Below, piece by piece: positions 1-14,260 of a DNA stretch of 14,260 bases (position 1 is the stretch's first letter; each line of letters starts with the position of its first letter). This DNA is from a virus (lineage: Duplodnaviria > Heunggongvirae > Uroviricota > Caudoviricetes): the IMG/VR virus record IMGVR_UViG_2706794689_000016. One strand, given 5' to 3'. The notes below the pieces were generated by a model. The model had not been told where the DNA came from and did no database searches. It saw only the letters and a list, made by a program, of their open reading frames with translations. Both the position numbers and the translations under genes were made by a program.

Positions 1-1250
1 CTACGATAACCGCGCATTCAACATGGCTACCTGTTCGTCGTTCATGTCATCAATCCACATACCGTAAATTTCATACACCATCTGCGCAGTTTCATGCCCC
101 ATCTGGCTGGCTATAAACGCCGGGTTCGCTCCTGCCGTCAACAGCCAGCAGGCAAAAGTATGCCGCGTATGGTACGGATTACGGCGGCGAATACCAGCAC
201 GTTTTACTGCTGCATTCCATCTCGCACCCAAACTGCTTACCGAGTAATAAGGTTTCTGTTTTCCGTTACACACTCTGGGCATGAAAACAAAATGCAGTTT
301 TTGCTTTTCGGTTCTGCCGTACTCCCGATGATAAAAAGTGATTTCGCTTTTGCGATGATGCCCGGTCAGTTTGTATTGCTCCTTCAGTGCTTCAAGAGCA
401 GGCTGCAGTAGTGTTACCGTCCGGATCCCCGCATTTGTTTTTGGGGGACCGAACATATCCAGTATCGTCAGGTTTCTTCTGACATTCACAACTCCCTTCT
501 CGAAATCCACATCCTCCCACGCCAGAGCAGCCAGTTCCCCGTGACGAAGCCCGGAGTATACGGCAAATTTCCACAAGTTCTGGCTCTGTCCTTTTTCACT
601 TTCCATTAATGCATTGAATTCTGTTTTAGATAACGGGTCAGGCTTTATTCTGTTTCTCTGTAATTTCTTTACTCCTTCAAATGGTTTGGTTGATATAAAT
701 CCCGACTGATACGCAAAACGTAACAACGAACAGAGCAGGGCGATATAGTTATCAACTGTGCGCACGGTTCTTCCTTTTTTGTTGGATCTTGGATTATCCA
801 GGTAAAGCGTTTCTCCATGCAGCAGTTCATTCCGGTAGTTTAAGATATCGCTATAACGAATATGCGATATCGGAGTACTCTCACAAATTATTATCCTGAG
901 TGTTTTTAATTGTGATTTCGTTTTCTTCATTGTGTTTGTTGTTAACTCTGTTTCTTTAATTTTTGTCCAGATATCACAAAGCTCCCCGAACGTTTTTATG
1001 ACCCTCGTTGTCACCATTTTTGNNNNNNNNNNNNNNNNNNNNNNNNNNNNNNNNNNNNNNNNNNNNNNNNNNNNNNNNNNNNNNNNNNNNNNNNNNNNNN
1101 NNNNNNNNNNNNNNNNNNNNNNNNNNNNNNNNNNNNNNNNNNNNNNNNNNNNNNNNNNNNNNNNNNNNNNNNNNNNNNNNNNNNNNNNNNNNNNNNNNNN
1201 NNNNNNNNNNNNNNNNNNNNNNNNNNNNNNNNNNNNNNNNNNNNNNNNNN
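1..1250 (-). CDS. intR: Tyrosine recombinase/integrase IntR, 3' end beyond the window start, 5' end inside masked run 1023-1276
   Basis: Minus-strand ORF reaching coordinate 1 without a stop; translation (…HTRHTFACWLLTAGANPAFIASQMGHETAQMVYEIY…) carries the phage-integrase catalytic region with the R..H..Y-type C-terminal motif. Start position is estimated, not seen. Confidence 0.8.
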
Positions 1251-1461
1251 NNNNNNNNNNNNNNNNNNNNNNNNNNGGATAGTTATACCAGATAATCCCT
1301 CGCTTACTGTCTGGCTTCCCTAAAGGAGATACTCGTTTGAAGTGGAAGCCTTCCACCCAACAGTTCTGGCGGTATGCTTCAATTTGTCTGGCCCCCAGAC
1401 CAGTGCGAAGCATCAGGCCGTATTCAACCATCCACTCTTCATTAAAGATTACTTGTGCCAT
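1246..1461 (-). CDS. xisR: Excisionase XisR (YdaQ-like); 3' end masked
   Basis: ATG at 1461..1459 preceded by GAGGTG 7 nt upstream; visible N-terminus [61 protein letters not shown] matches my recollection of Rac excisionase. The ORF track joins it to the integrase frame only because of the mask. Confidence 0.65.
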
Positions 1462-2692: not shown

Positions 2693-5173
2693 TTGCATAT
2701 TCCTTAGCCCAGCGGGGCAGTGATAACGTCTTAATAGCTGGCCATTCATCGGTATTGAGGCAGTCAGCCAGGGTTCGCAGATTGCGGTGATATTCCAGCT
2801 GACCTGCCAGTTTTGCTTCTTCGCCCATCATGAAAATTNNNNNNNNNNNNNNNNNNNNNNNNNNNNNNNNNNNNNNNNNNNNNNNNNNNNNNNNNNNNNN
2901 NNNNNNNNNNNNNNNNNNNNNNNNNNNNNNNNNNNNNNNNNNNNNNNNNNNNNNNNNNNNNNNNNNNNNNNNNNNNNNNNNNNNNNNNNNNNNNNNNNNN
3001 NNNNNNNNNNNNNNNNNNNNNNNNNNNNNNNNNNNNNNNNNNNNNNNNNNNNNNNNNNNNNNNNNNNNNNNNNNNNNNNNNNNNNNNNNNNNNNNNNNNN
3101 NNNNNNNNGTAAATTGATGATTCAGCGTGTCCGGCGCTTTCAACAAGCCATTGCCCCAGCGGCAAAGCCATAACGCTCTGATACATGAGTTCAATTTTCC
3201 GGCCTTCTTCGGCAGTGATAACCGTTTTTCCTGTGCTTGCGCATTCCCTCAGAAACGCTTTCTCTTCTTCTTTTCCGGAGTTTGTCCGGCGGTTAAATTC
3301 AGGTGCTACGATAAAGCGGTTACTGAATTCTTCCGGCTCAAGTACCCGGCNNNNNNNNNNNNNNNNNNNNNNNNNNNNNNNNNNNNNNNNNNNNNNNNNN
3401 NNNNNNNNNNNNNNNNNNNNNNNNNNNNNNNNNNNNNNNNNNNNNNNNNNNNNNNNNNNNNNNNNNNNNNNNNNNNNNNNNNNNNNNNNNNNNNNNNNNN
3501 NNNNNNNNNNNNNNNNNNNNNNNNNNNNNNNNNNNNNNNNNNNNNNNNNNNNNNNNNNNNNNNNNNNNNNNNNNNNNNNNNNNNNNNNNNNNNNNNNNNN
3601 NNNNNNNNNNCCGCCAGTCTGGCCGCAGGCATTGCAGGCTATTTCCGGTTCCTGTTGCACTACTGGCTCAGGTTGATTCATATCCGGGCTGGTTTTTTCC
3701 GTTTCTGGCTGGTTCTGGTACACACAATCGCGAGTCTGGATCCCCTTTACCCATTTCGGATCGTTCGGGTCGCTAATTCCGTCAACAAATTCACCACGTG
3801 ATGCAGCAAGCAATTTATCGGCATCGACAGGATTTTTTGATGGAATGTTTTTCCGGGCTTCATGGAGTTCTGCCCGCAGTTCCTGATATTTCGCATCAAC
3901 AGAATTTACCTGTGACTGAGCATCCAGCGGCTGCGTGTCCTGATGATGTTCAGTTGCGTCCGGTTCCATTGTTTCAGCCTCTCCCTGTTCAACTGCCGTT
4001 GTTCCAGATGGTTGCGGTTTTTCTTCATCATCCTGTTTTCCTTCTTCTGTTACTCGCTGCGGCATCGGGGCAGAGGAGCGACCGCAGGCAATATCCACGA
4101 TTTCCGGATCAGGGTTGGCATGATCGGTTTCAGTCAGTACTTTGTTCAGATATTCAGTGACGTGCGCGGGGATGACCTCGATCCCAATTGGTGCTTCTTT
4201 TACGGACGCAACCACGATGGCGCGGGAATAATCCAGCCCGCCAGGCATGGTGATGAATTTGTCGCGGAAAACAGAAAAGGGCGGTTTATTTTCAGCGATA
4301 ATTTCCTCAATGCGTTTAGCGTGTGCCGGATGAAGGTTATAGATGTCCAGATCCATTGAACGGGCCAGTACGCCAGTGGCTACGTCCCGCGCCAGTGACG
4401 TCAGATCGTGTACGAAACCTTCGCCGCGATCGGTGAGGTTTCCGCCGCCAGCATTAGCACCGGAAGCCGTGCGAGTGATGTGTGAAACACGATTACCCTT
4501 CATCCACTCTTTTGTCAGCAGTCCTCGATCGGTGTAGTCAGCGTTCAGGTATGCTTCGAAAAAAGCAGTTATCAGTCCCAGGTTTGAATTACCAGGATTA
4601 GGGAAAACTTTGTCNNNNNNNNNNNNNNNNNNNNNNNNNNNNNNNNNNNNNNNNNNNNNNNNNNNNNNNNNNNNNNNNNNNNNNNNNNNNNNNNNNNNNN
4701 NNNNNNNNNNNNNNNNNNNNNNNNNNNNNNNNNNNNNNNNNNNNNNNNNNNNNNNNNNNNNNNNNNNNNNNNNNNNNNNNNNNNNNNNNNNNNNNNNNNN
4801 NNNNNNNNNNNNNNNNNNNNNNNNNNNNNNNNNNNNNNNNNNNNNNNNNNNNNNNNNNNNNNNNNNNNNNTTGATAGTGAGCGTTGTCTGGTGCTGCTCC
4901 CGGTTTTAGTTCCCATGTCATGGAGTCTTTGCTGAGTTGATAGCGTTCACTCCAGGTAAAATCGATCTCACCTTCAGCGGGCAGGTCATTAACGACAGGA
5001 AAATTCGTGGCAACAGCTTTAAAATAGCTGCTCAGTTTTTTACCTGACTTAACGATCAGGTAGTCCAGAGTGGCACAGGTCGATTCAAAATCGTTGCTTG
5101 CCCACAGGACGACGTCAGGTTCACCGGATGATTTTTTCGCTTTCCGTAACAGGAAGAGTGGTTTTGTGCTCAT
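2685..5173 (-). CDS. recE: RecE exonuclease VIII (interrupted by masked runs 2839-3108, 3351-3610, 4615-4870)
   Basis: N-terminus [46 protein letters not shown]…, middle block …[33 protein letters not shown]… and C-terminus …[51 protein letters not shown] recognisable as RecE. The stop TAA 2685-2687 overlaps the recT start in the arrangement AATGACTAA (coupled genes). Confidence 0.93.
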
Positions 5174-5244
5174 TGTTTTTTAACCTCAACTCAGATTAAA
5201 ATTCGTTTTGTTCAGTGAATGATCTTGCCGGATACACACTGTTC

Positions 5245-5269
5245 ATAGCCTGCGCCATACGCAGGCTAT
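5245..5269. other. Perfect 10-bp stem / 5-nt loop hairpin in the racC-recE intergenic region
   Basis: ATAGCCTGCG-CCATA-CGCAGGCTAT, 5 nt downstream of the racC stop; a T-rich run (TTCTTTC) follows on the plus strand only. Confidence 0.5.
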
Positions 5270-5274
5270 TTCTT

Positions 5275-5550
5275 TCAGATTTCACCTTTTAATTTCATTG
5301 CAATTAGAGTTGCCAGAAATTCGGCTTTTTTTTCTGCGGGCAGATTCTTTCCGATATGCACCAGGCACATTTTTTTGACACCTTCATCAAGTGTTTTTAC
5401 GTTGCCTGATGGACCATCGATATCAACCACAGTGAATGGGGTTTCTTTATTTTCTGTTTTAATTACGTAGCCAATGCGCTTTCCTTCCAGATTCACCTCG
5501 TGAACAATGTCATCGGTAGTTACAACAGTGGCTTCATAATTGGTAATCAT
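5275..5550 (-). CDS. racC: RacC, small Rac prophage protein of unknown function
   Basis: ATG at 5550..5548 with GGAG SD 8 nt upstream; 91-aa product MITNYEATVVTTDDIVHEVNLEGKRIGYVIKTENKETPFTVVDIDGPSGNVKTLDEGVKKMCLVHIGKNLPAEKKAEFLATLIAMKLKGEI; stop TGA 5275-5277. Confidence 0.85.
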   Translation of the reverse strand: MITNYEATVVTTDDIVHEVNLEGKRIGYVIKTENKETPFTVVDIDGPSGNVKTLDEGVKKMCLVHIGKNLPAEKKAEFLATLIAMKLKGEI

Positions 5551-5624
5551 GTTTTTCTCCTTAATTAAGGTTGAGCGAATACCTGCCATTTCTGGCATAA
5601 ATTCAGTTTCGAATAGTCAATTAA

Positions 5625-5795
5625 TTAAAGTTCATGTGCCATCTGGTCTTTTTCGGCACAAGCTTCACTGCAATATTTTCTCGGTTCGTCTTTTGATAAA
5701 ATCCCGTGCATGAAGTGAAGCATTCTTTCAATAGCTTTGCTTTCTTCAACGTCTTTTTTGCAAAGGTGGTAAGCACATTTTATTTTCTTAGTCAT
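5625..5795 (-). CDS. ydaE: YdaE, small Cys/His-rich (putative zinc-binding) Rac protein, 56 aa; below the ORF-track length cut-off
   Basis: Hand translation of the minus strand from ATG 5795..5793: [12 protein letters not shown]… ending …EKDQMAHEL followed by TAA at 5627..5625. The start overlaps the kilR stop (TGATG). Confidence 0.8.
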   Translation of the reverse strand: MTKKIKCAYHLCKKDVEESKAIERMLHFMHGILSKDEPRKYCSEACAEKDQMAHEL

Positions 5796-6016
5796 CACCA
5801 TGACTCCGCCTTTACAGGTAAACCATCACGACCGAGGAAGACTTTAATCATGCGGTCAGTAATGCATGTTTTTGTGGTCAGGTTACGAATATATAGTTTT
5901 CGCTTTTTAATATTGTTTGCCGAGGCAATATATGTCCGGCCTTCATGAAGAACATAATCGCCAGGAGTCACACACTGACGTGGTATTTCATCAGTTCCGA
6001 AGTGATGTGCAATCAT
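5795..6016 (-). CDS. kilR: KilR, prophage-encoded killing protein/cell-division inhibitor
   Basis: ATG at 6016..6014 with GGAG 7 nt upstream; 73-aa product [73 protein letters not shown]; the ORF-track start at 6028 is a 4-codon upstream extension. Confidence 0.85.
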
Positions 6017-6190
6017 AATTATCTCCATTTTTACAAATGAACTTTGTTGATGCGGTGCCTGGTGCCTCCAGGTGACTGCAACCAGTTAACAATTACAGTC
6101 GGCTTTCCCACCCAAACCAATAAGGACTAACATGACTTTTAACTGTGCCACGTGCGCTTAGCCGCATTCACCGCATCACAAAATTCACTT

Positions 6191-6239
6191 TAAAAAGGGC
6201 GGACATCAGCCGAACTTCAAGAAAAAAACTGATGCCGCC
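6191..6239 (-). terminator. Candidate intrinsic terminator for leftward transcription, between the immunity-proximal genes and kilR
   Basis: Minus-strand RNA GGCGGCAUCAG - 19-nt loop - CUGAUGUCCGCC (11 bp with one bulged U) followed by CUUUUUA; the U-tract is present only in the minus orientation. Confidence 0.5.
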
Positions 6240-6457
6240 AGGACTACACACAGCAATGTCGTTATTTACAACCGGAGGCGCACTCCCACCATTTAAATTT
6301 AACAGACAAGACCGACTCTTTATGGATATCGGAAATGCGCCTTCGTGTTGTGCCCGGTTTTATTTCACCACCTCCGGGCTTCGGTGGTCTCGGCTATACC
6401 CCTACAGCGAGAGCTTGTGTTAACATTTCAATACCCTTACAGTTGAGAGTTATTGAT

Positions 6458-6946
6458 ATGTTGGATGTATTTACTCCATTGTTGAAACTTTTTGCTAACG
6501 AGCCACTCGAAATACTTATGTATACGATTATCATTTTTGGTCTCACTCTCTGGCTGATACCGAAAGAGTTTACTGTCGCATTCAATGCTTATACTGAAAT
6601 ACCTTGGCTCTTTCAGATTATCGTTTTTGCCTTTTCTTTCGTGGTCGCCATTTCCTTCTCAAGATTGCGAGCACATATTCAAAAGCATTATTCATTACTA
6701 CCAGAGCAACGAGTATTGCTTCGTTTATCTGAGAAAGAAATCGCTGTATTTAAAGATTTCCTTAAAACAGGAAATCTTATTATCACTTCTCCTTGCCGTA
6801 ACCCGGTTATGAAAAAATTAGAACGGAAGGGCATCATTCAACATCAGAGTGATAGCGCAAACTGTTCTTATTATCTCGTCACCGAAAAATACTCCCATTT
6901 TATGAAGTTATTCTGGAACAGCAGGAGTAGACGTTTTAATCGTTAG
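6458..6946 (+). CDS. sieB: SieB superinfection-exclusion membrane protein
   Basis: ATG 6458-6460 with GAGAG SD; 162-aa hydrophobic product MLDVFTPLLKLFANEPLEILMYTIIIFGLTLWLIPKEF…; an in-frame upstream ATG at 6335 would give 203 aa but has a weaker SD. Confidence 0.85.
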   Translation: MLDVFTPLLKLFANEPLEILMYTIIIFGLTLWLIPKEFTVAFNAYTEIPWLFQIIVFAFSFVVAISFSRLRAHIQKHYSLLPEQRVLLRLSEKEIAVFKDFLKTGNLIITSPCRNPVMKKLERKGIIQHQSDSANCSYYLVTEKYSHFMKLFWNSRSRRFNR

Positions 6947-7098
6947 CTTACTGTGTGCTTCTCCAACCATCGGCGCGCACCAGTTTCGGTTTTAAATGTT
7001 TTGCTTTTGGTATACGTCATGGCAGTGAACGTTCCATCCTGGTTGGGGAACACGCCGCACACCAGGGATTCGTTGTTGCCGAGGTCGATTTTTTGCAT
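6943..7098 (-). CDS. ydaF: YdaF, small Rac protein of unknown function, 51 aa; below the ORF-track cut-off
   Basis: Hand translation of the minus strand from ATG 7098..7096: MQKIDLGNNESLVCGVFPNQDGTFTAMTYTKSKTFKTETGARRWLEKHTVS, stop TAA 6945..6943; its 3' end overlaps the sieB 3' end by 4 nt. Confidence 0.75.
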   Translation of the reverse strand: MQKIDLGNNESLVCGVFPNQDGTFTAMTYTKSKTFKTETGARRWLEKHTVS

Positions 7099-8287: not shown

Positions 8288-8710
8288 AAATCAAGCATGA
8301 GCACATCGAGTCAGTGTTGTTAGCCCTGGCAGCCGAAAAAGGGCAGGCATGGGTAGCCAATGCCATTACTGAAGAATATCTGCGCCAGGGGGGCGGCGAA
8401 TTGCCCCTGGTACCAGGCAAGGACTGGAATAATCAGCAGAATATCTATCACCGTTGGTTGAAAGGTGAAACGAAAACGCAAAGAGAAANNNNNNNNNNNN
8501 NNNNNNNNNNNNNNNNNNNNNNNNNNNNNNNNNNNNNNNNNNNNNNNNNNNNNNNNNNNNNNNNNNNNNNNNNNNNNNNNNNNNNNNNNNNNNNNNNNNN
8601 NNNNNNNNNNNNNNNNNNNNNNNNNNNNNNNNNNNNNNNNNNNNNNNNNNNNNNNNNNNNNNNNNNNNNNNNNNNNNNNNNNNNNNNNNNNNNNNNNNNN
8701 NNNNNNNNNN
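8284..8710 (+). CDS. ydaT: YdaT; 3' end lies in masked run 8489-8760, end coordinate estimated
   Basis: ATG 8284 with GGGAG SD 8 nt upstream, overlapping the ydaS stop; N-terminus MKIKHEHIESVLLALAAEKGQAWVANAITEEYLRQGGGELPLVPGKDWNNQQNIYHRWLKGETKTQRE recognisable as Rac YdaT. Confidence 0.7.
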
Positions 8711-8788
8711 NNNNNNNNNNNNNNNNNNNNNNNNNNNNNNNNNNNNNNNNNNNNNNNNNNCCACCGGGCAGCATCATACGGGGCAATT

Positions 8789-9595
8789 ATGGCCGCATTA
8801 CCATACATGCAACTGTACATAGCTGATTACCTGGCTGACACCATGCATTTGTCAGCAGAGGAGCATGGTGCGTATTTGTTGCTGATGTTCAATTACTGGC
8901 AAACAGGAAAGCCAATACCTAAAAACAGGCTGGCAAAAATTGCCCGTCTGACTAACGAGCGATGGGCTGATGTTGAACCATCCTTGCAGGAGTTTTTTTG
9001 CGATAACGGCGAGGAATGGGTGCATCTTCGGATTGAGGAAGATCTGGCATCAGTCAGGGAAAAATTAACCAAAAAATCAGCCGCAGGAAAAGCATCTGTT
9101 CAGGCCAGAAGAAGCAGAAAGGAAGCAGATGTTCAAACAAAACAAGAGAGAAATTTAACAGGTGTTCAAACAGATGTTGAAGTGGTGTTTGAACATGATG
9201 TCAACACAAAGGCAACTAATAAAGATACAGNNNNNNNNNNNNNNNNNNNNNNNNNNNNNNNNNNNNNNNNNNNNNNNNNNNNNNNNNNNNNNNNNNNNNN
9301 NNNNNNNNNNNNNNNNNNNNNNNNNNNNNNNNNNNNNNNNNNNNNNNNNNNNNNNNNNNNNNNNNNNNNNNNNNNNNNNNNNNNNNNNNNNNNNNNNNNN
9401 NNNNNNNNNNNNNNNNNNNNNNNNNNNNNNNNNNNNNNNNNNNNNNNNNNNNNNNNNNNNNNNNNNNNNNNNNNNNNNNNNNNNGAATACCAGGGCTTGT
9501 TCGCGCCGAAAGGTGTTCGACCTGAGACGTTACTCCGACAGGTTAACACCGTCTCGTTACCGGATAGTGCGATCCCGCCAGGCTTCAGGGGGTAA
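8789..9595 (+). CDS. ydaU: YdaU, DUF1376-family phage replication-associated protein (masked run 9231-9484 inside)
   Basis: ATG 8789 (MAALPYMQLYIADYLADTMHLSAEEHGAYLLLMFNYWQTGKPIPKNRLAKIARLTNERWADVEPSLQEFF…), C-terminus …EYQGLFAPKGVRPETLLRQVNTVSLPDSAIPPGFRG*, stop TAA 9593-9595. Start could lie further upstream inside the mask. Confidence 0.75.
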   Translation: MAALPYMQLYIADYLADTMHLSAEEHGAYLLLMFNYWQTGKPIPKNRLAKIARLTNERWADVEPSLQEFFCDNGEEWVHLRIEEDLASVREKLTKKSAAGKASVQARRSRKEADVQTKQERNLTGVQTDVEVVFEHDVNTKATNKDTXXXXXXXXXXXXXXXXXXXXXXXXXXXXXXXXXXXXXXXXXXXXXXXXXXXXXXXXXXXXXXXXXXXXXXXXXXXXXXXXXXXXXEYQGLFAPKGVRPETLLRQVNTVSLPDSAIPPGFRG

Positions 9596-9890
9596 CTGAC
9601 CATGAAAAATATTGCGACAGGCGACGTTCTTGAACGTATCCGCAGACTGGCCCCGTCACATGTAACCGCGCCATTCAAGACGGTAGCGGAGTGGCGCGAG
9701 TGGCAACTTTCCGAAGGCCAGAAACGTTGTGAGGAGATCAACCGTCAGAATCGTCAGTTGCGGGTGGAAAAAATTCTGAATCGCTCTGGCATCCAGCCAT
9801 TGCACCGCAAATGCTCGTTTTCGAATTACCAGGTGCAGAACGAAGCGCAGCGATACGCGTTGAGTCAGGCGAAATCCATCGCTGATGAAC
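9485..9890 (+). repeat. Direct repeat, copy 1 (ydaU 3' end + ydaV 5' part)
   Basis: Aligns to 10363-10445 and 10705-10757 in copy 2 with offsets of 878 and 867 nt; 5 of 83 positions differ in the ydaU-tail block and 6 of 53 in the ydaV block. Confidence 0.8.
9602..9890 (+). CDS. ydaV: DnaC/IstB-like replication protein YdaV, first copy: N-terminal 96 codons visible; possibly truncated or chimeric downstream
   Basis: ATG 9602, 6 nt after the ydaU stop; MKNIATGDVLERIRRLAPSHVTAPFKTVAEWREWQLSEGQKRCEEINRQNRQLRVEKILNRSGIQPLHRKCSFSNYQVQNEAQRYALSQAKSIADE then mask; sequence after the mask is a ydaU-like C-terminal segment, not the ydaV continuation. Confidence 0.5.
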
Positions 9891-10142
9891 NNNNNNNNNN
9901 NNNNNNNNNNNNNNNNNNNNNNNNNNNNNNNNNNNNNNNNNNNNNNNNNNNNNNNNNNNNNNNNNNNNNNNNNNNNNNNNNNNNNNNNNNNNNNNNNNNN
10001 NNNNNNNNNNNNNNNNNNNNNNNNNNNNNNNNNNNNNNNNNNNNNNNNNNNNNNNNNNNNNNNNNNNNNNNNNNNNNNNNNNNNNNNNNNNNNNNNNNNN
10101 NNNNNNNNNNNNNNNNNNNNNNNNNNNNNNNNNNNNNNNNNN

Positions 10143-10480
10143 TCGCCAAAAACGAGCGTCTAAAAAATTCGAGCCGGAGGCTATTGAGCTGCCCGATTGG
10201 TTGCCGGAAACACTCTGGCATGAGTGGGTCCGGTTCAGACAGGCATTGCGAAAACCGATTCGAACGGAGCAGGGCGCTAACGGGGCGATACGGGAACTGG
10301 AAAAATTCCGTCAGCAGGGTTTTACACCTGAGCAGGTGATTCGACACAGCATCGCCAATGAATACCAGGGCCTGTTCGCGCCGAAAGGTGTTCGGCCTGA
10401 GACGTTGCTCCGACAGGTTAACACCGTCTCGTTGCCGGACAGTGCNNNNNNNNNNNNNNNNNNNNNNNNNNNNNNNNNNN
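10143..10480 (+). CDS. Second copy of the YdaU C-terminal region (DUF1376 C-terminal segment); both ends masked, may be a gene fragment or part of a fusion
   Basis: Frame beginning at 10143 reads …RPKRASKKFEPEAIELPDWLPETLWHEWVRFRQALRKPIRTEQGANGAIRELEKFRQQGFTPEQVIRHSIANEYQGLFAPKGVRPETLLRQVNTVSLPDS…; its tail is identical in protein to the ydaU tail at 9485-9568. Confidence 0.5.
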
Positions 10481-10765
10481 NNNNNNNNNNNNNNNNNNNN
10501 NNNNNNNNNNNNNNNNNNNNNNNNNNNNNNNNNNNNNNNNNNNNNNNNNNNNNNNNNNNNNNNNNNNNNNNNNNNNNNNNNNNNNNNNNNNNNNNNNNNN
10601 NNNNNNNNNNNNNNNNNNNNNNNNNNNNNNNNNNNNNNNNNNNNNNNNNNNNNNNNNNNNNNNNNNNNNNNNNNNNNNNNNNNNNNNNNNNNNNNNNNNN
10701 NNNNGAACGACGGCCAGCGATACGCGTTAAGCCAGGCGAAATCCATCGCCGATGAACTGATGACC
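10363..10765 (+). repeat. Direct repeat, copy 2 (ydaU-like tail + ydaV-like segment)
   Basis: See copy 1; visible parts 10363-10445 and 10705-10757, interior masked by run 10446-10704. Confidence 0.8.
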
Positions 10766-11200
10766 GGGTGTACAAATTTTGCGTTCAGCGGAAAACCTGG
10801 TACCGGGAAGAATCACTTAGCGGCAGCTATCGGGAATCGCCTGCTGAAAGACGGTCAGACAGTGATTGTGGTTACCGTGGCTGATGTTATGAGCGCCCTG
10901 CACGCCAGCTATGACGACGGGCAGTCAGGCGAAAAATTTTTGCGGGAGCTGTGCGAAGTGGATCTGCTGGTTCTTGATGAAATTGGCATTCAGCGCGAGA
11001 CGAAAAACGAGCAGGTGGTGCTGCACCAGATTGTTGATCGCCGGACAGCGTCGATGCGCAGCGTGGGGATGCTGACAAACCTGAACTATGAGGCCATGAA
11101 AACNNNNNNNNNNNNNNNNNNNNNNNNNNNNNNNNNNNNNNNNNNNNNNNNNNNNNNNNNNNNNNNNNNNNNNNNNNNNNNNNNNNNNNNNNNNNNNNNN
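10470..11200 (+). CDS. ydaV: DnaC/IstB-like AAA+ helicase-loader (YdaV-like), second copy; Walker A and B present; both ends masked
   Basis: Visible 10705-11103: …NDGQRYALSQAKSIADELMTGCTNFAFSGKPGTGKNHLAAAIGNRLLKDGQTVIVVTVADVMSALHASYDDGQSGEKFLRELCEVDLLVLDEIGIQRETKNEQVVLHQIVDRRTASMRSVGMLTNLNYEAMKT; Walker A GKPGTGKN, Walker B LLVLDE. Start and end positions estimated. Confidence 0.6.
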
Positions 11201-11358
11201 NNNNNNNNNNNNNNNNNNNNNNNNNNNNNNNNNNNNNNNNNNNNNNNNNNNNNNNNNNNNNNNNNNNNNNNNNNNNNNNNNNNNNNNNNNNNNNNNNNNN
11301 NNNNNNNNNNNNNNNNNNNNNNNNNNNNNNNNNNNNNNNNNNNNNNNNNNNNNNNNNN

Positions 11359-11711
11359 ACGGTCGGGTCACGATTCGGCAGTTGTCAGATGAAACAGGTA
11401 TCAGTCGTGCGTCTGTCGGTCGCTTATGCATAGAACTGGTCGCAAGTGGTGATGTATATAATTCTGGCTACGGCTTATTCCCGTCTGAACAGGCTCGCAA
11501 GGACTGGCAAAGCGCCCGCAAAAAACTCTCGAGAGTAAAGGTGAGGAAACCGGTTGTTGTTGATCCGGACCTTATCTGGTCATTACCTGACGGAGAAATA
11601 CGCCGCTACGACAGGCGCCTGAATATAATCTGTCGCGAGTGCCGGAAGAGCGAAGCTATGCAGCGTGTACTGGCTTTCTATCAGGGTAATTTTCAGGAGG
11701 CGATACTGTGA
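11359..11711 (+). CDS. Putative helix-turn-helix DNA-binding protein of unknown function (5' end masked)
   Basis: Open frame from the mask edge: …GRVTIRQLSDETGISRASVGRLCIELVASGDVYNSGYGLFPSEQARKDWQSARKKLSRVKVRKPVVVDPDLIWSLPDGEIRRYDRRLNIICRECRKSEAMQRVLAFYQGNFQEAIL*, stop TGA 11709-11711; HTH-like stretch TIRQLSDETGISRASVGRL. Confidence 0.55.
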
Positions 11712-11768
11712 ATGAAATTAGCTATCAGGCTTCAATTACCGCTGGCATTCGCATCAAAGGAGAGGAGC

Positions 11769-12125
11769 ATGGAAATAAAACCAGAAGATGAGTTAAGCAA
11801 TATCGTTTTATTTCCGGTAAAAGAGGATGACCCTCGTAATCAGGTTAATTTTCTTTATGAGCCATCGGAAAGACCATATTGCCATCACGCCTCTGTACGG
11901 GTTGACGAAAAAGAGCGTCAGGTCCGCTGTAAAATCTGCGGTGCGGTTGTGGAGCCGTTTGACTGGATGCTCTCTGTGGCAAAAAGAGAAACCAGACTGG
12001 CAGATGATGTAAGGCTATTGCGCCAGGAGGAACAGGAAAGGCGGAGAAATATAGAAAAGCTGATACAGATTGAGCGTAACGCGAAAGCGCGGATACGCAG
12101 GGCGACAAAATCCAGAACTGAATAA
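11769..12125 (+). CDS. Hypothetical protein with C-H-H…CxxC zinc-ribbon-like motif and basic coiled-coil C-terminus
   Basis: ATG 11769 preceded by strong SD AAGGAGAGGAG; 118 aa MEIKPEDELSNIVLFPVKEDDPRNQVNFLYEPSERPYCHHASVRVDEKERQVRCKICGAVVEPFDWMLSVAKRETRLADDVRLLRQEEQERRRNIEKLIQIERNAKARIRRATKSRTE; the longer track ORF from 11712 lacks an SD. Confidence 0.6.
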   Translation: MEIKPEDELSNIVLFPVKEDDPRNQVNFLYEPSERPYCHHASVRVDEKERQVRCKICGAVVEPFDWMLSVAKRETRLADDVRLLRQEEQERRRNIEKLIQIERNAKARIRRATKSRTE

Positions 12126-12272
12126 TTAAATTTAGCACTGTTAAAAATTTAATCCTTAACCGGAGGGATTTCTGCACCCTCAAATCATCAGGAGACCACC
12201 CGAAAGGGCGGGGAGCAGTCACACATCTGTTTCCGATAGCCCCGTTCTAATGCTACACTCTTTGATATTTTT

Positions 12273-12959
12273 ATGACCCCAATAAACATATTTATGACAG
12301 TTGCTGATTTCAAACGGCCCAAATTGGAGCTCCCAAACGGGGCAAACAAACTACTACTGCACTCTTGCTGTGCTCCATGTTCCGGTGAGGTGATGGAGGC
12401 GCTTCAGGCCTCGGGAATCGACTACACCATCTTTTTCTACAACCCGAACATTCATCCTCAGAAAGAGTATTTAATTCGTAAGGATGAGAATATTCGCTTT
12501 GCTGAACAACACGGCGTGCCGTTTATTGATGCTGATTACGACACAGACAACTGGTTTGAACGAGCCAAAGGAATGGAATGGGAGCCCGAACGAGGGATCC
12601 GTTGCACCATGTGTTTTGACATGCGTTTTGAGCGGACAGCGCTGTACGCCGCTGAAAATGGTTTCAGTGTGATCAGCAGTTCACTGGGCATTTCACGCTG
12701 GAAAAATATGCAGCAGGTTAACGACTGTGGGCGGCGAGCCGTCGCGCATTATCCGGGCATGGTGTACTGGGATTATAACTGGCGCAAGCAGGGCGGCTCG
12801 TCCCGTATGATTGAAATCAGCAAGCGCGAAAAATTCTATCAGCAGGAATATTGTGGCTGTGTGTATTCTCTGCGCGATACCAATCTACACCGCAAATCTC
12901 AGGGACGCCCTCTTATCAAAATTGGTCAACTCCACTACGGTAAAGAAGAGAAGGAGTGA
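12273..12959 (+). CDS. queH: QueH-like (DUF208) epoxyqueuosine reductase homologue, prophage cargo gene
   Basis: 228-aa ORF with motifs I associate with DUF208/QueH: [11 protein letters not shown] near the N-terminus, [12 protein letters not shown] in the middle and [11 protein letters not shown] near the C-terminus. Start is ATG 12273 or 12294; neither has an SD. Assignment is from motif memory, not a search. Confidence 0.7.
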
Positions 12960-12963
12960 TTTT

Positions 12964-13236
12964 ATGGGGCACCTTTCTGATNNNNNNNNNNNNNNNNNNN
13001 NNNNNNNNNNNNNNNNNNNNNNNNNNNNNNNNNNNNNNNNNNNNNNNNNNNNNNNNNNNNNNNNNNNNNNNNNNNNNNNNNNNNNNNNNNNNNNNNNNNN
13101 NNNNNNNNNNNNNNNNNNNNNNNNNNNNNNNNNNNNNNNNNNNNNNNNNNNNNNNNNNNNNNNNNNNNNNNNNNNNNNNNNNNNNNNNNNNNNNNNNNNN
13201 NNNNNNNNNNNNNNNNNNNNNNNNNNNNNNNAGTGA
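12964..13236 (+). CDS. Hypothetical protein, almost entirely inside masked run 12982-13231
   Basis: ATG 12964 (MGHLSD…) placed 7 nt after AAGGAG and 5 nt after the queH stop, so probably co-transcribed with queH; end is estimated from the first in-frame stop after the mask. Confidence 0.4.
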   Translation: MGHLSDXXXXXXXXXXXXXXXXXXXXXXXXXXXXXXXXXXXXXXXXXXXXXXXXXXXXXXXXXXXXXXXXXXXXXXXXXXXXXXXXXXXX

Positions 13237-13339
13237 CGGCACTGGTAACGAGGAAAGACCTCTGTGAGGTACGAATCCGAACCGGCCAGACGGAGGTCGC
13301 TGTCTTCGTAGACTACGAATCCAGGAAGTAAGAGTGACC

Positions 13340-13367
13340 GGGCGGGGAGCTGATCCCATCCCCGCCC
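13340..13367. other. GC-rich 9-bp stem-loop in non-coding DNA
   Basis: GGGCGGGGA - GCTGATCCCA - TCCCCGCCC; no adjoining U-tract on either strand. Confidence 0.5.
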
Positions 13368-13406
13368 ACCTCTGATGTGTCAGGCATCCTCAACGCACCC
13401 GCACTT

Positions 13407-13460
13407 AACCCGCCCATCGCTGTGATCTCTCAGCGTTTCGGCGGGTTTTTTGTTGTTTAT
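13407..13460 (+). terminator. Candidate rho-independent terminator (plus strand) in the nin-like region
   Basis: AACCCGCC (13407-13414) pairs with GGCGGGTT (13440-13447); 25-nt loop contains an inner CGCTG/CAGCG stem; followed directly by TTTTTTGTTGTTTATTT. Confidence 0.5.
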
Positions 13461-13471
13461 TTCCGGTGAAT

Positions 13472-13499
13472 TTGATTCGCGCACCTTCGCAGATAGAAT
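13472..13499 (+). promoter_or_regulatory. Candidate sigma70 promoter for the 95-aa ORF and the DUF1367 gene
   Basis: TTGATT (13472-13477) - 16 nt - TAGAAT (13494-13499), immediately downstream of the terminator-like hairpin. Confidence 0.45.
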
Positions 13500-13580
13500 C
13501 GACTCACTTAAGTAGCGCGCAGGGAGAAGAGGGATGGACCCCGAACAGGGGAGAGCTATTTATCTGGAAGGATTCTGAAG

Positions 13581-13868
13581 ATGAAAATCGAAGAATTGCG
13601 TGAAATTTTTAGTGAAAATGGCCTCTATGCTGTGCGCGTTGAGAATGGAGCGATTGTCAGCCATTGCCGCATTAGATGTTTGCAATCTCAACAAAGGAAG
13701 AGCGGTGCTGTGTTATTTTATTTTTGTAATGGACTTCTGACGGACGGTTTTATTTTGCGTGAGGACGAATTTGTCACATCATTACGGGTTTTGAAAGAGA
13801 TTGGTTTTAAGGCTGGTTTTCTGCTTTTGCTGAAGAATAAACTCATCTACAATCTTGAGCAGGATTGA
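13581..13868 (+). CDS. Hypothetical 95-aa protein
   Basis: ATG 13581 with GGAAGGA SD 8 nt upstream and a promoter-like TTGATT-N16-TAGAAT upstream; MKIEELREIFSENGLYAVRVENGAIVSHCRIRCLQSQQRKSGAVLFYFCNGLLTDGFILREDEFVTSLRVLKEIGFKAGFLLLLKNKLIYNLEQD; no family recognised. Confidence 0.5.
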   Translation: MKIEELREIFSENGLYAVRVENGAIVSHCRIRCLQSQQRKSGAVLFYFCNGLLTDGFILREDEFVTSLRVLKEIGFKAGFLLLLKNKLIYNLEQD

Positions 13869-13906
13869 ACTCCTGCTGTGTAACACCGTGCCACCGGAGA
13901 AAGCCG

Positions 13907-14260
13907 ATGGCACATATACAACTGGTCAAACAAACCTCTTCCGGATTACTTCTCCCGGCGACGCCGGAGAGTTGCGATTTTCTGCATCAAATCAAAATAG
14001 GTGAGTGGATACACGCAGACTTTAAGCGTGTGTGTAACTACGCATTCCACAAGCGTTTTTTCAAACTCCTGCAACTGGGTTTCGATTACTGGACTCCGGT
14101 CGGTGGGGCGATCACGCCTCGCGAACGAAAACTGGTGTCCGGTTTCGTTGATTACCTGTGTGAATCAGTAGGCCGGGAACATACGCCAGCTCTGAGCGAA
14201 GCCGCAGAGCAATTGAGGTGTACTGGCAATAGCGGACACTACCATTTGTTCTTTTTTTAA
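13907..14260 (+). CDS. DUF1367 (YbcN-like) nin-region protein, 3' end beyond the window
   Basis: ATG 13907 with GGAG 8 nt upstream; MAHIQLVKQTSSGLLLPATPESCDFLHQIKIGEWIHADFKRVCNYAFHKRFFKLLQLGFDYWTPVGGAITPRERKLVSGFVDYL… resembles my recollection of DLP12 YbcN; the track ORF start at 13865 is a TTG extension. Confidence 0.65.
   Translation: MAHIQLVKQTSSGLLLPATPESCDFLHQIKIGEWIHADFKRVCNYAFHKRFFKLLQLGFDYWTPVGGAITPRERKLVSGFVDYLCESVGREHTPALSEAAEQLRCTGNSGHYHLFFF

What the first reader, a model, noticed from the sequence alone, without database searches (positions are those of the whole stretch)
12126..13267. QueH-like epoxyqueuosine reductase homologue as prophage cargo, with a tightly coupled masked downstream ORF
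A 228-aa ORF carries the motif set I associate with DUF208/QueH ([34 protein letters not shown]), a tRNA queuosine-maturation enzyme family, not a phage structural or replication function. It sits in the nin-like region, preceded by 147 nt of structured non-coding DNA (GAGGG-loop-CCCTC at 12163-12181; CCC-GAAA-GGG at 12199-12208). Neither candidate start codon (12273, 12294) has a Shine-Dalgarno sequence, whereas the ORF starting at 12964 has a strong one inside the queH 3' end. E. coli makes queuosine with the B12-dependent QueG, so a phage-borne QueH could be a B12-independent alternative or could act on another substrate. The partner ORF is almost entirely masked.
Basis: partly seen in the sequence, partly recalled or inferred. 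Interest (0 to 1): 0.6.

Follow-up and report, generated by a model that had tools for sequence, protein, structure and literature searches.

The report
Prophage queH gene beside hok/sok toxin locus
The ORF is a genuine, already-annotated QueH (vitamin-B12-independent tRNA queuosine-maturation enzyme) carried by a Rac-type prophage, but its supposed coupled partner ORF is a masking artefact: the hidden DNA is an ordinary hok/sok toxin-antitoxin locus.

Summary
The QueH call holds. The ORF matches Pfam QueH over the full profile (220.6 bits). It keeps the family's CCxPC, CxxC and CGC cysteines. Its AlphaFold model matches the solved Thermotoga maritima QueH structures (TM 0.84).

It is 78-90% identical to chromosomal QueH proteins of other Enterobacterales. 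Prophage alleles show dN/dS of 0.02-0.08. The true start is ATG 12294 (221 aa), not 12273.

RefSeq already names this exact protein "epoxyqueuosine reductase QueH". The gene is in 995 of 5,426 complete E. coli genomes, including REL606 and O157:H7. All 5,426 also carry queG, so queH is an addition, not a replacement.

The "tightly coupled masked ORF" is not real. In the closest unmasked relative and in 80 of 80 viral contigs, ATG 12964 opens only six codons. The 250-base mask hides the promoter, sok/leader region and 5' end of a hokD type I toxin-antitoxin locus. The visible bases 13233-13328 encode the Hok C-terminus.

The 5' hairpins fold no better than shuffles (z = -1.06) and belong to the upstream phage module.

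The most likely role is a B12-independent final step of queuosine synthesis, possibly expressed from a conserved extended -10-like promoter captured with the gene. This is a known kind and already annotated, but no experimental study of the prophage copy was found. Interest is low to moderate.

The parts
12126..12211 (+). Intergenic DNA belonging to the upstream phage module. It holds two short hairpins (12163-12181; 12196-12211 with a GAAA loop). It is not part of the queH unit.
   Evidence: Window 12100-12211 is 90-95% identical to phages that lack queH. Only 14 of 84 related queH loci have this upstream sequence. Fold z = -1.06. No Rfam family matches here.
12212..12222 (.). Mosaic joint: left edge of the queH cargo module.
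   Evidence: Most E. coli and phage HannyBb matches to queH begin at window 12223, while matches to the upstream module end at 12211.
12251..12259 (+). TGcTACACT, an extended -10-like promoter element 34 nt upstream of the queH ATG. The transcription start near 12266 is inferred.
   Evidence: GATGCTACAC is invariant in all 9 upstream alleles of 84 loci, although the flanks diverge. TGCTACAAT and TGCTAAAAT sit at the same distance (33-35 nt) before chromosomal orthologues L098 and L097. The stringent sigma-70 scan did not score it, and no TSS data exist.
12294..12959 (+). queH coding sequence, 221 aa (epoxyqueuosine reductase QueH, PF02677). The in-frame ATG at 12273 is not the conserved start.
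   Evidence: Pfam QueH 220.6 bits over profile 1-174 of 175. PDB 7LC5 E = 5e-22. Foldseek top five hits are all T. maritima QueH, TM 0.84. Cysteines are invariant. PGAP start is 12294. The GF47 allele has ATT plus an in-frame TAA, and L073 has a frameshift, at the upstream ATG. dN/dS is 0.02-0.08 and 85 of 85 copies are intact.
12952..12984 (+). SD-like AGGAG (12952-12956, formed by the Glu/Lys codons at the queH 3' end) plus a six-codon mini-ORF (ATG 12964; the stop TGA falls on the first masked bases).
   Evidence: L001 reads ATGGGGCACCTTTCTGATTGA. 80 of 80 IMG/VR loci have six codons: MGHLSD, MDHLSD or MEHLSY, and the changes are non-synonymous. In E. coli genomes that have hok but not queH, homology starts at about window 12962, so SD and ATG lie on either side of a module joint.
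12981..13231 (+). Masked stretch: hok promoter (-35 TTGATT starts at 12981), hok mRNA leader with the sok antisense target and upstream in-frame (mok-like) ATG, and the 5' end of hokD.
   Evidence: In L001 the equivalent 261 bases hold TTGATT-18-TAGAAT, a full-length Rfam sok RF01794 match at 117 bits against a gathering score of 59, and a 70-aa in-frame ORF that includes hokD. The window has 250 N here, so exact positions under the mask are uncertain by 11 nt.
13176..13331 (+). hokD toxin coding sequence (51 aa). The start lies under the mask. The visible part, 13232-13331, encodes ...VTALVTRKDLCEVRIRTGQTEVAVFVDYESRK*.
   Evidence: PGAP annotates hokD in L001 at 14088-14243. Pfam HOK_GEF scores 81.1 bits for L001 and 56.5 bits for the visible window part 13233-13328. 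PHROG phrog_251 is 'MokW-like host killing'.
13410..13456 (+). Terminator-like element ending the hok transcript: CCGCCC ... GGCGGG stem followed by TTTTTTGTTGTTT.
   Evidence: Read directly from the sequence. The terminator scan did not report it because the loop exceeds the scan's 8-nt limit. Homology of the hok module across E. coli ends near here.

Best explanation
Window 12294-12959 is a functional queH gene. It encodes a [4Fe-4S]/Fe-dependent, cobalamin-independent epoxyqueuosine reductase that converts oQ34 to Q34 in tRNA-Asp, -Asn, -His and -Tyr.

It was captured from an enterobacterial chromosome together with about 70 nt of its own 5' region. It now travels as cargo in the nin-like region of lambdoid prophages; here the backbone is Rac-type. 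A hok/sok (hokD) type I toxin-antitoxin locus, an independent unit with its own promoter, follows it directly.

Every E. coli also has the B12-dependent QueG, and E. coli cannot make cobalamin de novo (established knowledge). The prophage gene would therefore make the last step of queuosine synthesis independent of external corrinoids, in the lysogen and/or during phage growth. There is no partner protein.

**Shown:** family membership, ligand conservation, fold, purifying selection, co-presence with queG, and the module boundaries.

**Inferred:** enzymatic activity in vivo, expression from the conserved extended -10-like element, and the physiological benefit.
For: **Family and structure**
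- Pfam QueH scores 220.6 bits against a cut-off of 23.5, full length.
- T. maritima QueH structures match at E = 5e-22.
- The AF2 model (pLDDT 74) matches five QueH crystal structures at TM 0.83-0.87. The next hits, PP-loop/TtuA-type proteins, are far weaker.
- C25, C26, C104, C107, C187 and C189 (221-aa numbering) are invariant from T. maritima to this protein. The position of T. maritima Asp13 is Cys here, as in the Staphylococcus-, Listeria- and gut-type QueH sequences I aligned.

**Origin and selection**
- It is 78-90% identical to QueH proteins of a Providencia, a Photorhabdus and two unnamed relatives (Logan P0001, ENA P0002). Those genes sit in ordinary chromosomal neighbourhoods: tmcA and purC; BenE; LysR and acetyltransferase.
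- dN/dS is 0.02-0.08 among 21 prophage alleles, and 85 of 85 copies are intact.

**Distribution**
- queH is in 995 of 5,426 complete E. coli genomes, and queG is in 5,426 of 5,426.
- It occurs on at least three prophage backbones: Rac-type at ttcA, a prophage at modC/ybhA, and the Qin-like prophage of REL606.
- It occurs in one isolated phage, HannyBb.

**Promoter and neighbour**
- A conserved TGnTAnAnT element lies 33-35 nt before the ATG in prophage and chromosomal copies.
- The downstream locus is hok/sok.

**Literature**
- QueH is the cobamide-independent alternative to QueG (PMC5372724, PMC6461909).
Against: - No activity, transcript or tRNA-modification data exist for the prophage copy. 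None was found in the searched literature.
- The promoter element is only a conserved consensus-like motif. The stringent promoter scan did not call it.
- There is no Shine-Dalgarno sequence, so translation efficiency is unknown. Chromosomal orthologues L097, L098 and the Providencia copy also lack one.
- No NCBIfam HMM matched. The PGAP name must come from another evidence type.
- Whether oQ versus Q matters physiologically in E. coli is not established.
Confidence: 0.8

Rival explanations
1. One reading: queH is translationally coupled to a roughly 100-aa partner ORF starting at 12964, and the two products work together.
For: A strong SD-like AGGAG lies 7 nt before ATG 12964, and the open frame appears to run through the mask.
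Against: - The ORF is six codons in L001 and in 80 of 80 related loci, with non-synonymous variation.
- ATG 12964 and the stop at 13267 are in different frames.
- The masked DNA is the hok promoter and leader.
- The SD and the ATG lie on opposite sides of a module joint.
Confidence: 0.01
2. queH serves the phage rather than the lysogen. It is transcribed only as part of the delayed-early rightward operon after induction, and it tunes decoding of NAU/NAC codons during lytic growth.
For: The gene lies in the same orientation as, and downstream of, the replication genes in the early-right region. No terminator is predicted upstream. It is retained in the viable phage HannyBb.
Against: A conserved promoter-like element inherited from chromosomal orthologues suggests autonomous transcription. 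The gene is also kept intact in defective prophages such as the Qin-like element of REL606. The two readings are not mutually exclusive.
Confidence: 0.25
3. The enzyme acts on a substrate other than tRNA-oQ, for example a 7-deazaguanine derivative in phage DNA or another epoxide.
For: Phages are known to modify DNA with 7-deazaguanines (my own knowledge). The T. maritima Asp13 position is Cys here.
Against: - No DpdA/TGT, QueA or preQ0-pathway genes appear in the annotated prophages.
- Cys at that position is the common family state.
- The protein is 78-90% identical to housekeeping chromosomal QueH, and the N- and C-terminal extensions are shared with them.
Confidence: 0.04
4. queH is a selectively neutral passenger, retained only because it is linked to the hok/sok addiction module.
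For: queH is followed directly by the hok leader in 80 of 80 loci.
Against: dN/dS of 0.02-0.08 with 10-22 synonymous against 1-6.5 non-synonymous differences for the diverged alleles shows selection on the protein itself. queH stays intact in about 15 loci where hok is truncated.
Confidence: 0.05

Closest known systems
QueH of Thermotoga maritima (PDB 7LC5, 7LC7, 9DEU; Pfam PF02677 / former DUF208)
   Same: Same family and fold (33% identity in the MAFFT alignment; Foldseek TM 0.84). The CC, CxxC and CGC cysteines are conserved. The predicted reaction is the same: oQ to Q on tRNA without cobalamin.
   Different: Cys replaces Asp13. About 19 extra N-terminal and about 25 extra basic C-terminal residues are shared with gammaproteobacterial QueH. 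It is encoded on a prophage in a host that also has QueG.
Chromosomal QueH of Enterobacterales (Providencia, Photorhabdus, and two unnamed chromosomal relatives at 90%; by name also Erwinia and Enterobacter)
   Same: 78-90% amino-acid identity, the same length and termini, a -10-like hexamer 31-35 nt before the ATG, and usually no SD.
   Different: Those checked sit in housekeeping neighbourhoods. This copy sits in mobile lambdoid prophage DNA next to hok/sok.
QueG (yjeS) of E. coli, the cobalamin-dependent epoxyqueuosine reductase
   Same: It catalyses the same pathway step and is present in the same cells (PMC5372724).
   Different: It is unrelated in sequence and fold, needs B12, and is a core gene (5,426 of 5,426). 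queH is accessory (995 of 5,426).
hok/sok of plasmid R1 and hokD (relF) of the K-12 Qin prophage
   Same: The DNA downstream of queH has a Hok/Gef toxin ORF and a full-length Rfam sok/leader match. PGAP annotates it as hokD.
   Different: In K-12, homology starts only 14 nt before the hokD ATG, and relBE occupies the place of queH plus the hok leader. Here the complete locus is present in close relatives but masked in the window.
Phage 'morons' / auxiliary metabolic genes
   Same: A host-derived metabolic gene inserted at a module boundary of a temperate phage, probably with its own promoter.
   Different: No terminator separates it from the next unit. Expression in lysogens is untested.

Membership tests
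QueH (PF02677, epoxyqueuosine reductase) | Full-length match to the family profile above the curated cut-off | tested here: met
   220.6 bits against a cut-off of 23.5; residues 27-201 match profile 1-174 of 175.
QueH (PF02677, epoxyqueuosine reductase) | Conserved metal-ligand cysteines: CCxP[C/D] ... CxxC ... CGC | tested here: met
   C32, C33, C36, C111, C114, C194 and C196 (228-aa numbering). Six are invariant with T. maritima QueH. The seventh is Cys in five diverse QueH sequences and Asp in T. maritima.
QueH (PF02677, epoxyqueuosine reductase) | Fold of the solved QueH structures | tested here: met
   The AF2 model (mean pLDDT 74.1, pTM 0.77) hits 7LC7, 7LC5, 9DCO, 9D86 and 9DEU first, with target-normalised TM 0.83-0.87 and rmsd 2.3-3.0 A. 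Model confidence is only moderate.
QueH (PF02677, epoxyqueuosine reductase) | Reduces oQ34-tRNA to Q34-tRNA without cobalamin | not testable with these tools
   Needs LC-MS of tRNA nucleosides or an in vitro assay. No published test of the prophage copy was found.
QueH as non-orthologous replacement of QueG (the genomic pattern by which the family was found) | Present in genomes that lack queG | tested here: not met
   queG is present in 5,426 of 5,426 complete E. coli genomes, including all 995 with queH. Here queH is an addition. This is a context feature, not a criterion of protein-family membership.
hok/sok type I toxin-antitoxin locus | Hok/Gef toxin ORF | tested here: met
   Window 13233-13328 scores 56.5 bits on HOK_GEF (profile 16-42 of 42). 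The full L001 HokD scores 81.1 bits.
hok/sok type I toxin-antitoxin locus | Structured hok mRNA leader / sok antisense region upstream of hok | tested here: met
   Rfam RF01794 scores 117 bits (gathering 59), model 1-157 of 157, in L001 at the position the window masks. The flanks are 99.8-99.9% identical, but the window's own bases are N, so this rests on relatives.
   Six codons in L001 and in 80 of 80 loci.
cis-regulatory RNA (riboswitch or leader) in the queH 5' region | Match to a known RNA family, or folding beyond chance that is conserved with the gene | tested here: not met
   No Rfam match at E <= 1 other than sok. z = -1.06. The hairpin DNA is absent from 67-70 of 84 queH loci.
Phage moron (autonomous cargo transcription unit) | Own promoter and own terminator | tested here: inconclusive
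   The conserved TGcTACACT element is shared with chromosomal orthologues. The consensus scan did not call it, no terminator lies between queH and hok, and there are no TSS data.

The most novel reading that the evidence does not exclude
Prophage queH is a lysogenic-conversion gene. It is expressed in lysogens from the promoter it brought from its chromosomal donor. It makes the last step of queuosine synthesis independent of corrinoids in roughly one in five E. coli strains, including the B/REL606 lineage and O157:H7 (the exact protein is also recorded in Shigella sonnei). The K-12 rule that oQ accumulates without B12 would then not hold for them.
Probability: 0.45. Interest if true: 0.45.

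Novelty: already known. Interest (0 to 1): 0.25.

Why it matters
If the prophage QueH is active, tRNA queuosine status in B12-free conditions differs between common E. coli lineages. K-12 has no queH, while REL606 and many O157:H7 and clinical strains have it. That bears on translation-fidelity and tRNA-modification studies, and on how phages supply cofactor-independent back-ups of host enzymes.

It also exposes an annotation gap. PHROGs (phrog_3217) and the HannyBb phage record call the protein 'unknown' or 'hypothetical', although its family is clear.

For this scan, the main practical lesson is that ORFs running through N-masks are artefacts.

Tried and rejected
1. **Regulatory RNA or riboswitch in the 5' region.** The Rfam E-value scan found only sok, and folding was not better than shuffles. 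Rejected.
2. **Start at 12273.** Rejected on homologue N-termini, the PGAP start, and two alleles that destroy or frameshift that ATG.
3. **Partner ORF.** Rejected.
4. **'Split DnaC' at 9602-11392, seen in Pfam/NCBIfam.** The ORF shapes are N-run artefacts, although a real partial duplication of the ydaU/ydaV region seems to lie there.
5. **Literature on prophage or E. coli B QueH.** Five full-text searches found nothing specific. The founding QueH papers (PMC5495094, PMC8884141) and Frey 1988 (PMC211089) are not held. Statements about their content rest on my own knowledge.
6. **NCBIfam.** No model matched QueH.
7. **Exact source of the window.** No complete E. coli genome covers more than 70% of it. 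The exact protein is recorded for Shigella sonnei and Enterobacteriaceae. Source unresolved.
8. **QueH in isolated phages.** Only HannyBb is convincing. The other tblastn hits are 'UNVERIFIED' contigs or very large records that look bacterial.
9. **First structure job.** I repeated it without that sequence.
Full report
**1. What is in the sequence**

Upstream lies a 137-aa ORF of unknown function (11712-12125; phrog_1621, with a weak zinc-ribbon match). Downstream, 250 N run from 12982 to 13231.

The window contains 12 such N-runs of 250-272 bases. ORFs that appear to run through them are open only because N is translated as X. Examples are 12811-13236, 12956-13267, 9602-10339 and 10358-11392.

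**2. Identity of the protein**

- The protein matches Pfam PF02677 (QueH) at 220.6 bits over the whole profile, against a cut-off of 23.5.
- A sequence search of the PDB finds only T. maritima QueH (7LC5 and its mutants) at E = 5e-22.
- An AlphaFold2 model built on 18 homologues has mean pLDDT 74.1. Foldseek places five QueH crystal structures first, at target-normalised TM 0.83-0.87. PP-loop and TtuA-type proteins follow far behind.
- Alignments show the CC, CxxC and CGC cysteines invariant from T. maritima to this protein.
- The residue aligned with T. maritima Asp13, which has been crystallised as a D13N mutant, is Cys here. It is also Cys in the Staphylococcus-, Listeria- and gut-derived QueH sequences I aligned. 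CCAPC is therefore the common state of the family, not a loss.

**3. Start codon**

PGAP starts the gene at the second ATG (window 12294, 221 aa) in three different E. coli genomes. Homologues from other genera begin within three residues of that Met.

Among 84 related loci, one allele (GF47) has ATT followed by an in-frame TAA at the position of ATG 12273. Another (L073) carries a 1-nt insertion that puts that ATG out of frame. ATG 12294 is invariant.

The chromosomal orthologues in L097, L098 and Providencia lack one too, so this is a trait of the clade and not of the phage copy.

**4. Origin and selection**

The protein is 78-90% identical to QueH proteins of other Enterobacterales and Gammaproteobacteria, including Erwinia, Providencia, Proteus, Photorhabdus, Pantoea and Dickeya; Enterobacter QueH proteins share its 90% cluster. 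The four relatives whose contigs I examined lie in ordinary chromosomal neighbourhoods:

| Relative | Neighbouring genes |
|---|---|
| Providencia (P0038) | tmcA, purC |
| Photorhabdus (P0020) | BenE |
| P0001 (Logan contig, organism not named) | LysR regulator, acetyltransferases |
| P0002 (ENA metagenome contig, organism not named) | LysR regulator, acetyltransferase |

The prophage gene is therefore a captured host gene.

Among 85 prophage copies (21 distinct alleles) all are intact. Pairwise dN/dS against the window allele is 0.02-0.08; for example, the commonest allele shows 19 synonymous and 2 non-synonymous differences. The protein is under strong purifying selection in its prophage setting.

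**5. Prevalence and annotation**

- queH is present in 995 of 5,426 complete E. coli genomes (985 with at least 80% coverage). PGAP annotates it throughout as 'epoxyqueuosine reductase QueH'. Carriers include E. coli B REL606 and O157:H7.
- The exact 221-aa sequence is recorded as 'MULTISPECIES: epoxyqueuosine reductase QueH [Enterobacteriaceae]' and for Shigella sonnei, on at least 1,000 contigs.
- queG is present in all 5,426 genomes. queH is always an addition and never a replacement.
- The gene sits on at least three prophage backbones: the Rac-type element of this window (intR, recET, ydaUV; integrated next to ttcA in the closest relative), a prophage at modC/ybhA, and the Qin-like prophage of REL606.
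- It is in one isolated temperate phage, HannyBb, where it is labelled hypothetical.
- PHROGs lists the family (phrog_3217) as of unknown function.
- Five full-text searches found no paper dealing with a prophage-borne or E. coli B QueH.

**6. The 5' region**

The two hairpins exist, but the 171-nt region folds no better than shuffled sequence: z = -1.06, and 35 of 200 shuffles do as well. A permissive Rfam scan of the equivalent DNA in the closest relative found no riboswitch or leader.

Window 12100-12211 is shared with phages that lack queH, where small unrelated ORFs follow it. Most queH matches begin at 12223. Only 14 of the 84 queH loci carry both hairpins, and 3 more carry only the second. 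The hairpins belong to the upstream module, and the mosaic joint is at 12212-12222.

What is conserved with the gene is TGcTACACT at 12251-12259. It is invariant in all nine upstream alleles. TGCTACAAT and TGCTAAAAT sit at the same 33-35 nt distance before the chromosomal orthologues. TATACT and TATAAT sit at 31-32 nt in Providencia and Photorhabdus.

I read this as an extended -10 promoter captured with the gene. This is an inference. The stringent consensus scan did not score it, and no transcript data were available.

**7. The 'partner ORF' and the masked DNA**

The closest unmasked relative is L001 (E. coli FDAARGOS_944), 99.8% identical over 11359-12981 and 99.9% over 13232-14213. It reads ATG GGG CAC CTT TCT GAT TGA after the queH stop, which is six codons. 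All 80 IMG/VR loci have the same six-codon ORF, with non-synonymous variation: MGHLSD, MDHLSD or MEHLSY.

Its stop lies inside TTGATT, the -35 box of a TTGATT-18-TAGAAT promoter. Next comes a full-length match to Rfam sok RF01794 (117 bits; gathering score 59), which ends at the hok ATG. Then follows hokD, as annotated by PGAP (HOK_GEF 81.1 bits).

The window's own visible bases 13233-13328 encode the Hok C-terminus (56.5 bits). A terminator-like hairpin with a T-run follows at 13410-13456.

In E. coli genomes that have hok but not queH, homology begins at about window 12962. The AGGAG at the queH 3' end and the ATG therefore lie on two sides of a module joint.

The mask is 250 bases where L001 has 261. 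Either the mask does not preserve length or the window has a small indel; indels are seen in this leader in other loci.

**8. Linkage of queH and hok**

In 80 of 80 loci the hok promoter and leader follow queH directly. About 15 are truncated after roughly 163 nt, one has an insertion of about 1.3 kb, and one has a partial duplication. In complete E. coli genomes, 741 have both elements contiguous over at least 80% of the 1,257-base query.

hok/sok occurs far more widely without queH: 4,732 genomes have some match to the query.

In K-12, homology starts only 14 nt before the hokD ATG, and relBE lies where queH and the hok leader sit in REL606. This fits what I recall of the published description of hokD (relF) as a rearranged locus; I could not check that paper here.

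**9. How it most likely works**

QueH is the cobamide-independent alternative to QueG for the oQ to Q step (PMC5372724, PMC6461909). E. coli depends on imported corrinoids for QueG (established knowledge; Frey et al. 1988, not readable here).

A queH-carrying prophage would therefore make the last step of queuosine synthesis independent of B12. Whether the beneficiary is the lysogen (autonomous promoter) or the phage during early transcription is open. Both may apply.

A role on another substrate is unlikely. The annotated prophages carry no DpdA/TGT, QueA or preQ0-pathway genes, and the protein is nearly identical to housekeeping enzymes.

**10. Verdict**

The family assignment is correct and solid, and it is already in RefSeq. 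The physiological idea is reasonable and cheaply testable, but not shown. The 'structured leader' is not supported. The 'tightly coupled masked ORF' is an artefact that hides an ordinary hok/sok locus.

Novelty: already known. Interest: low to moderate.

Noticed in passing
window 1023-1276, 1524-1782, 2310-2577, 2839-3108, 3351-3610, 4615-4870, 8489-8760, 9231-9484, 9891-10142, 10446-10704, 11104-11358, 12982-13231: Twelve N-runs of 250-272 bases. Any ORF listed across them is open only because N translates as X. Mask lengths do not always equal the length in close relatives (e.g. 250 against 261 bases).
   Followed up: yes
window 9485-11103: The replication module looks partly duplicated or hybrid. 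9485-9890 matches the Rac-type ydaU 3' end plus ydaV 5' end (L009, 99.5%). 10143-10445 matches the 3' end of the O-like gene of L001 (100%), followed by a second ydaV (10705-11103). The junction is hidden in the mask 9891-10142. It could be a recombinant of two prophages or an assembly chimera.
   Followed up: partly
L010 (E. coli B REL606) 5071-6972; L002 (K-12 Qin) 4652-5873: REL606 has queH-hokD-rem in its Qin-like prophage. K-12 Qin has relB-relE directly upstream of hokD instead, with hok-locus homology starting 14 nt before the hokD ATG. K-12 therefore lacks queH while the REL606 (E. coli B) genome has it.
   Followed up: partly
IMG/VR loci L042, L043, L045, L046, L048, L049, L057, L062, L078, L079, L081, L085, L086 (and L039, whose contig ends there); L052; L065: The hok locus downstream of queH decays in part of the population. 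It is truncated after about 163 nt in about 15 loci, interrupted by an insertion of about 1.3 kb between leader positions 42 and 56 in L052, and partly duplicated in L065. queH stays intact in all of them.
   Followed up: partly
window 12952-12984: A near-ideal SD (AGGAG, 7-nt spacer) precedes a six-codon ORF whose stop overlaps the -35 box of the hok promoter. It is conserved in length in 81 loci, but the residues vary. It is probably fortuitous; translation here from queH read-through transcripts was not assessed.
   Followed up: partly
window 13581-13868 and 13907-14260: Downstream of hok lie a 95-aa ORF (phrog_340, unknown function, no Pfam match; the ORF at the equivalent place in phage vB_EcoS-640R1 is labelled 'toxin to Rem') and the start of a DUF1367 gene (159.7 bits). 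This is the usual hok-rem-ydfU-type neighbourhood of Qin/Rac-like prophages.
   Followed up: no
window 12196-12211 vs L001 13097-13112: The GAAA-loop hairpin has an A.C mismatch in the window (CCACCC/GGGCGG) and is perfect in L001 (CCGCCC/GGGCGG). Among related loci 8 carry the A and 6 the G. It has no T-run and is not a canonical terminator.
   Followed up: partly
phage collection hits H115-H138: Most other 'phage' records with QueH homologues are UNVERIFIED short metagenomic contigs or records of 280-380 kb (Acinetobacter phage MD-2021a, Staphylococcus phage SA 1306 Kay). They look like bacterial DNA filed as phage, so QueH in isolated phages is rare.
   Followed up: partly
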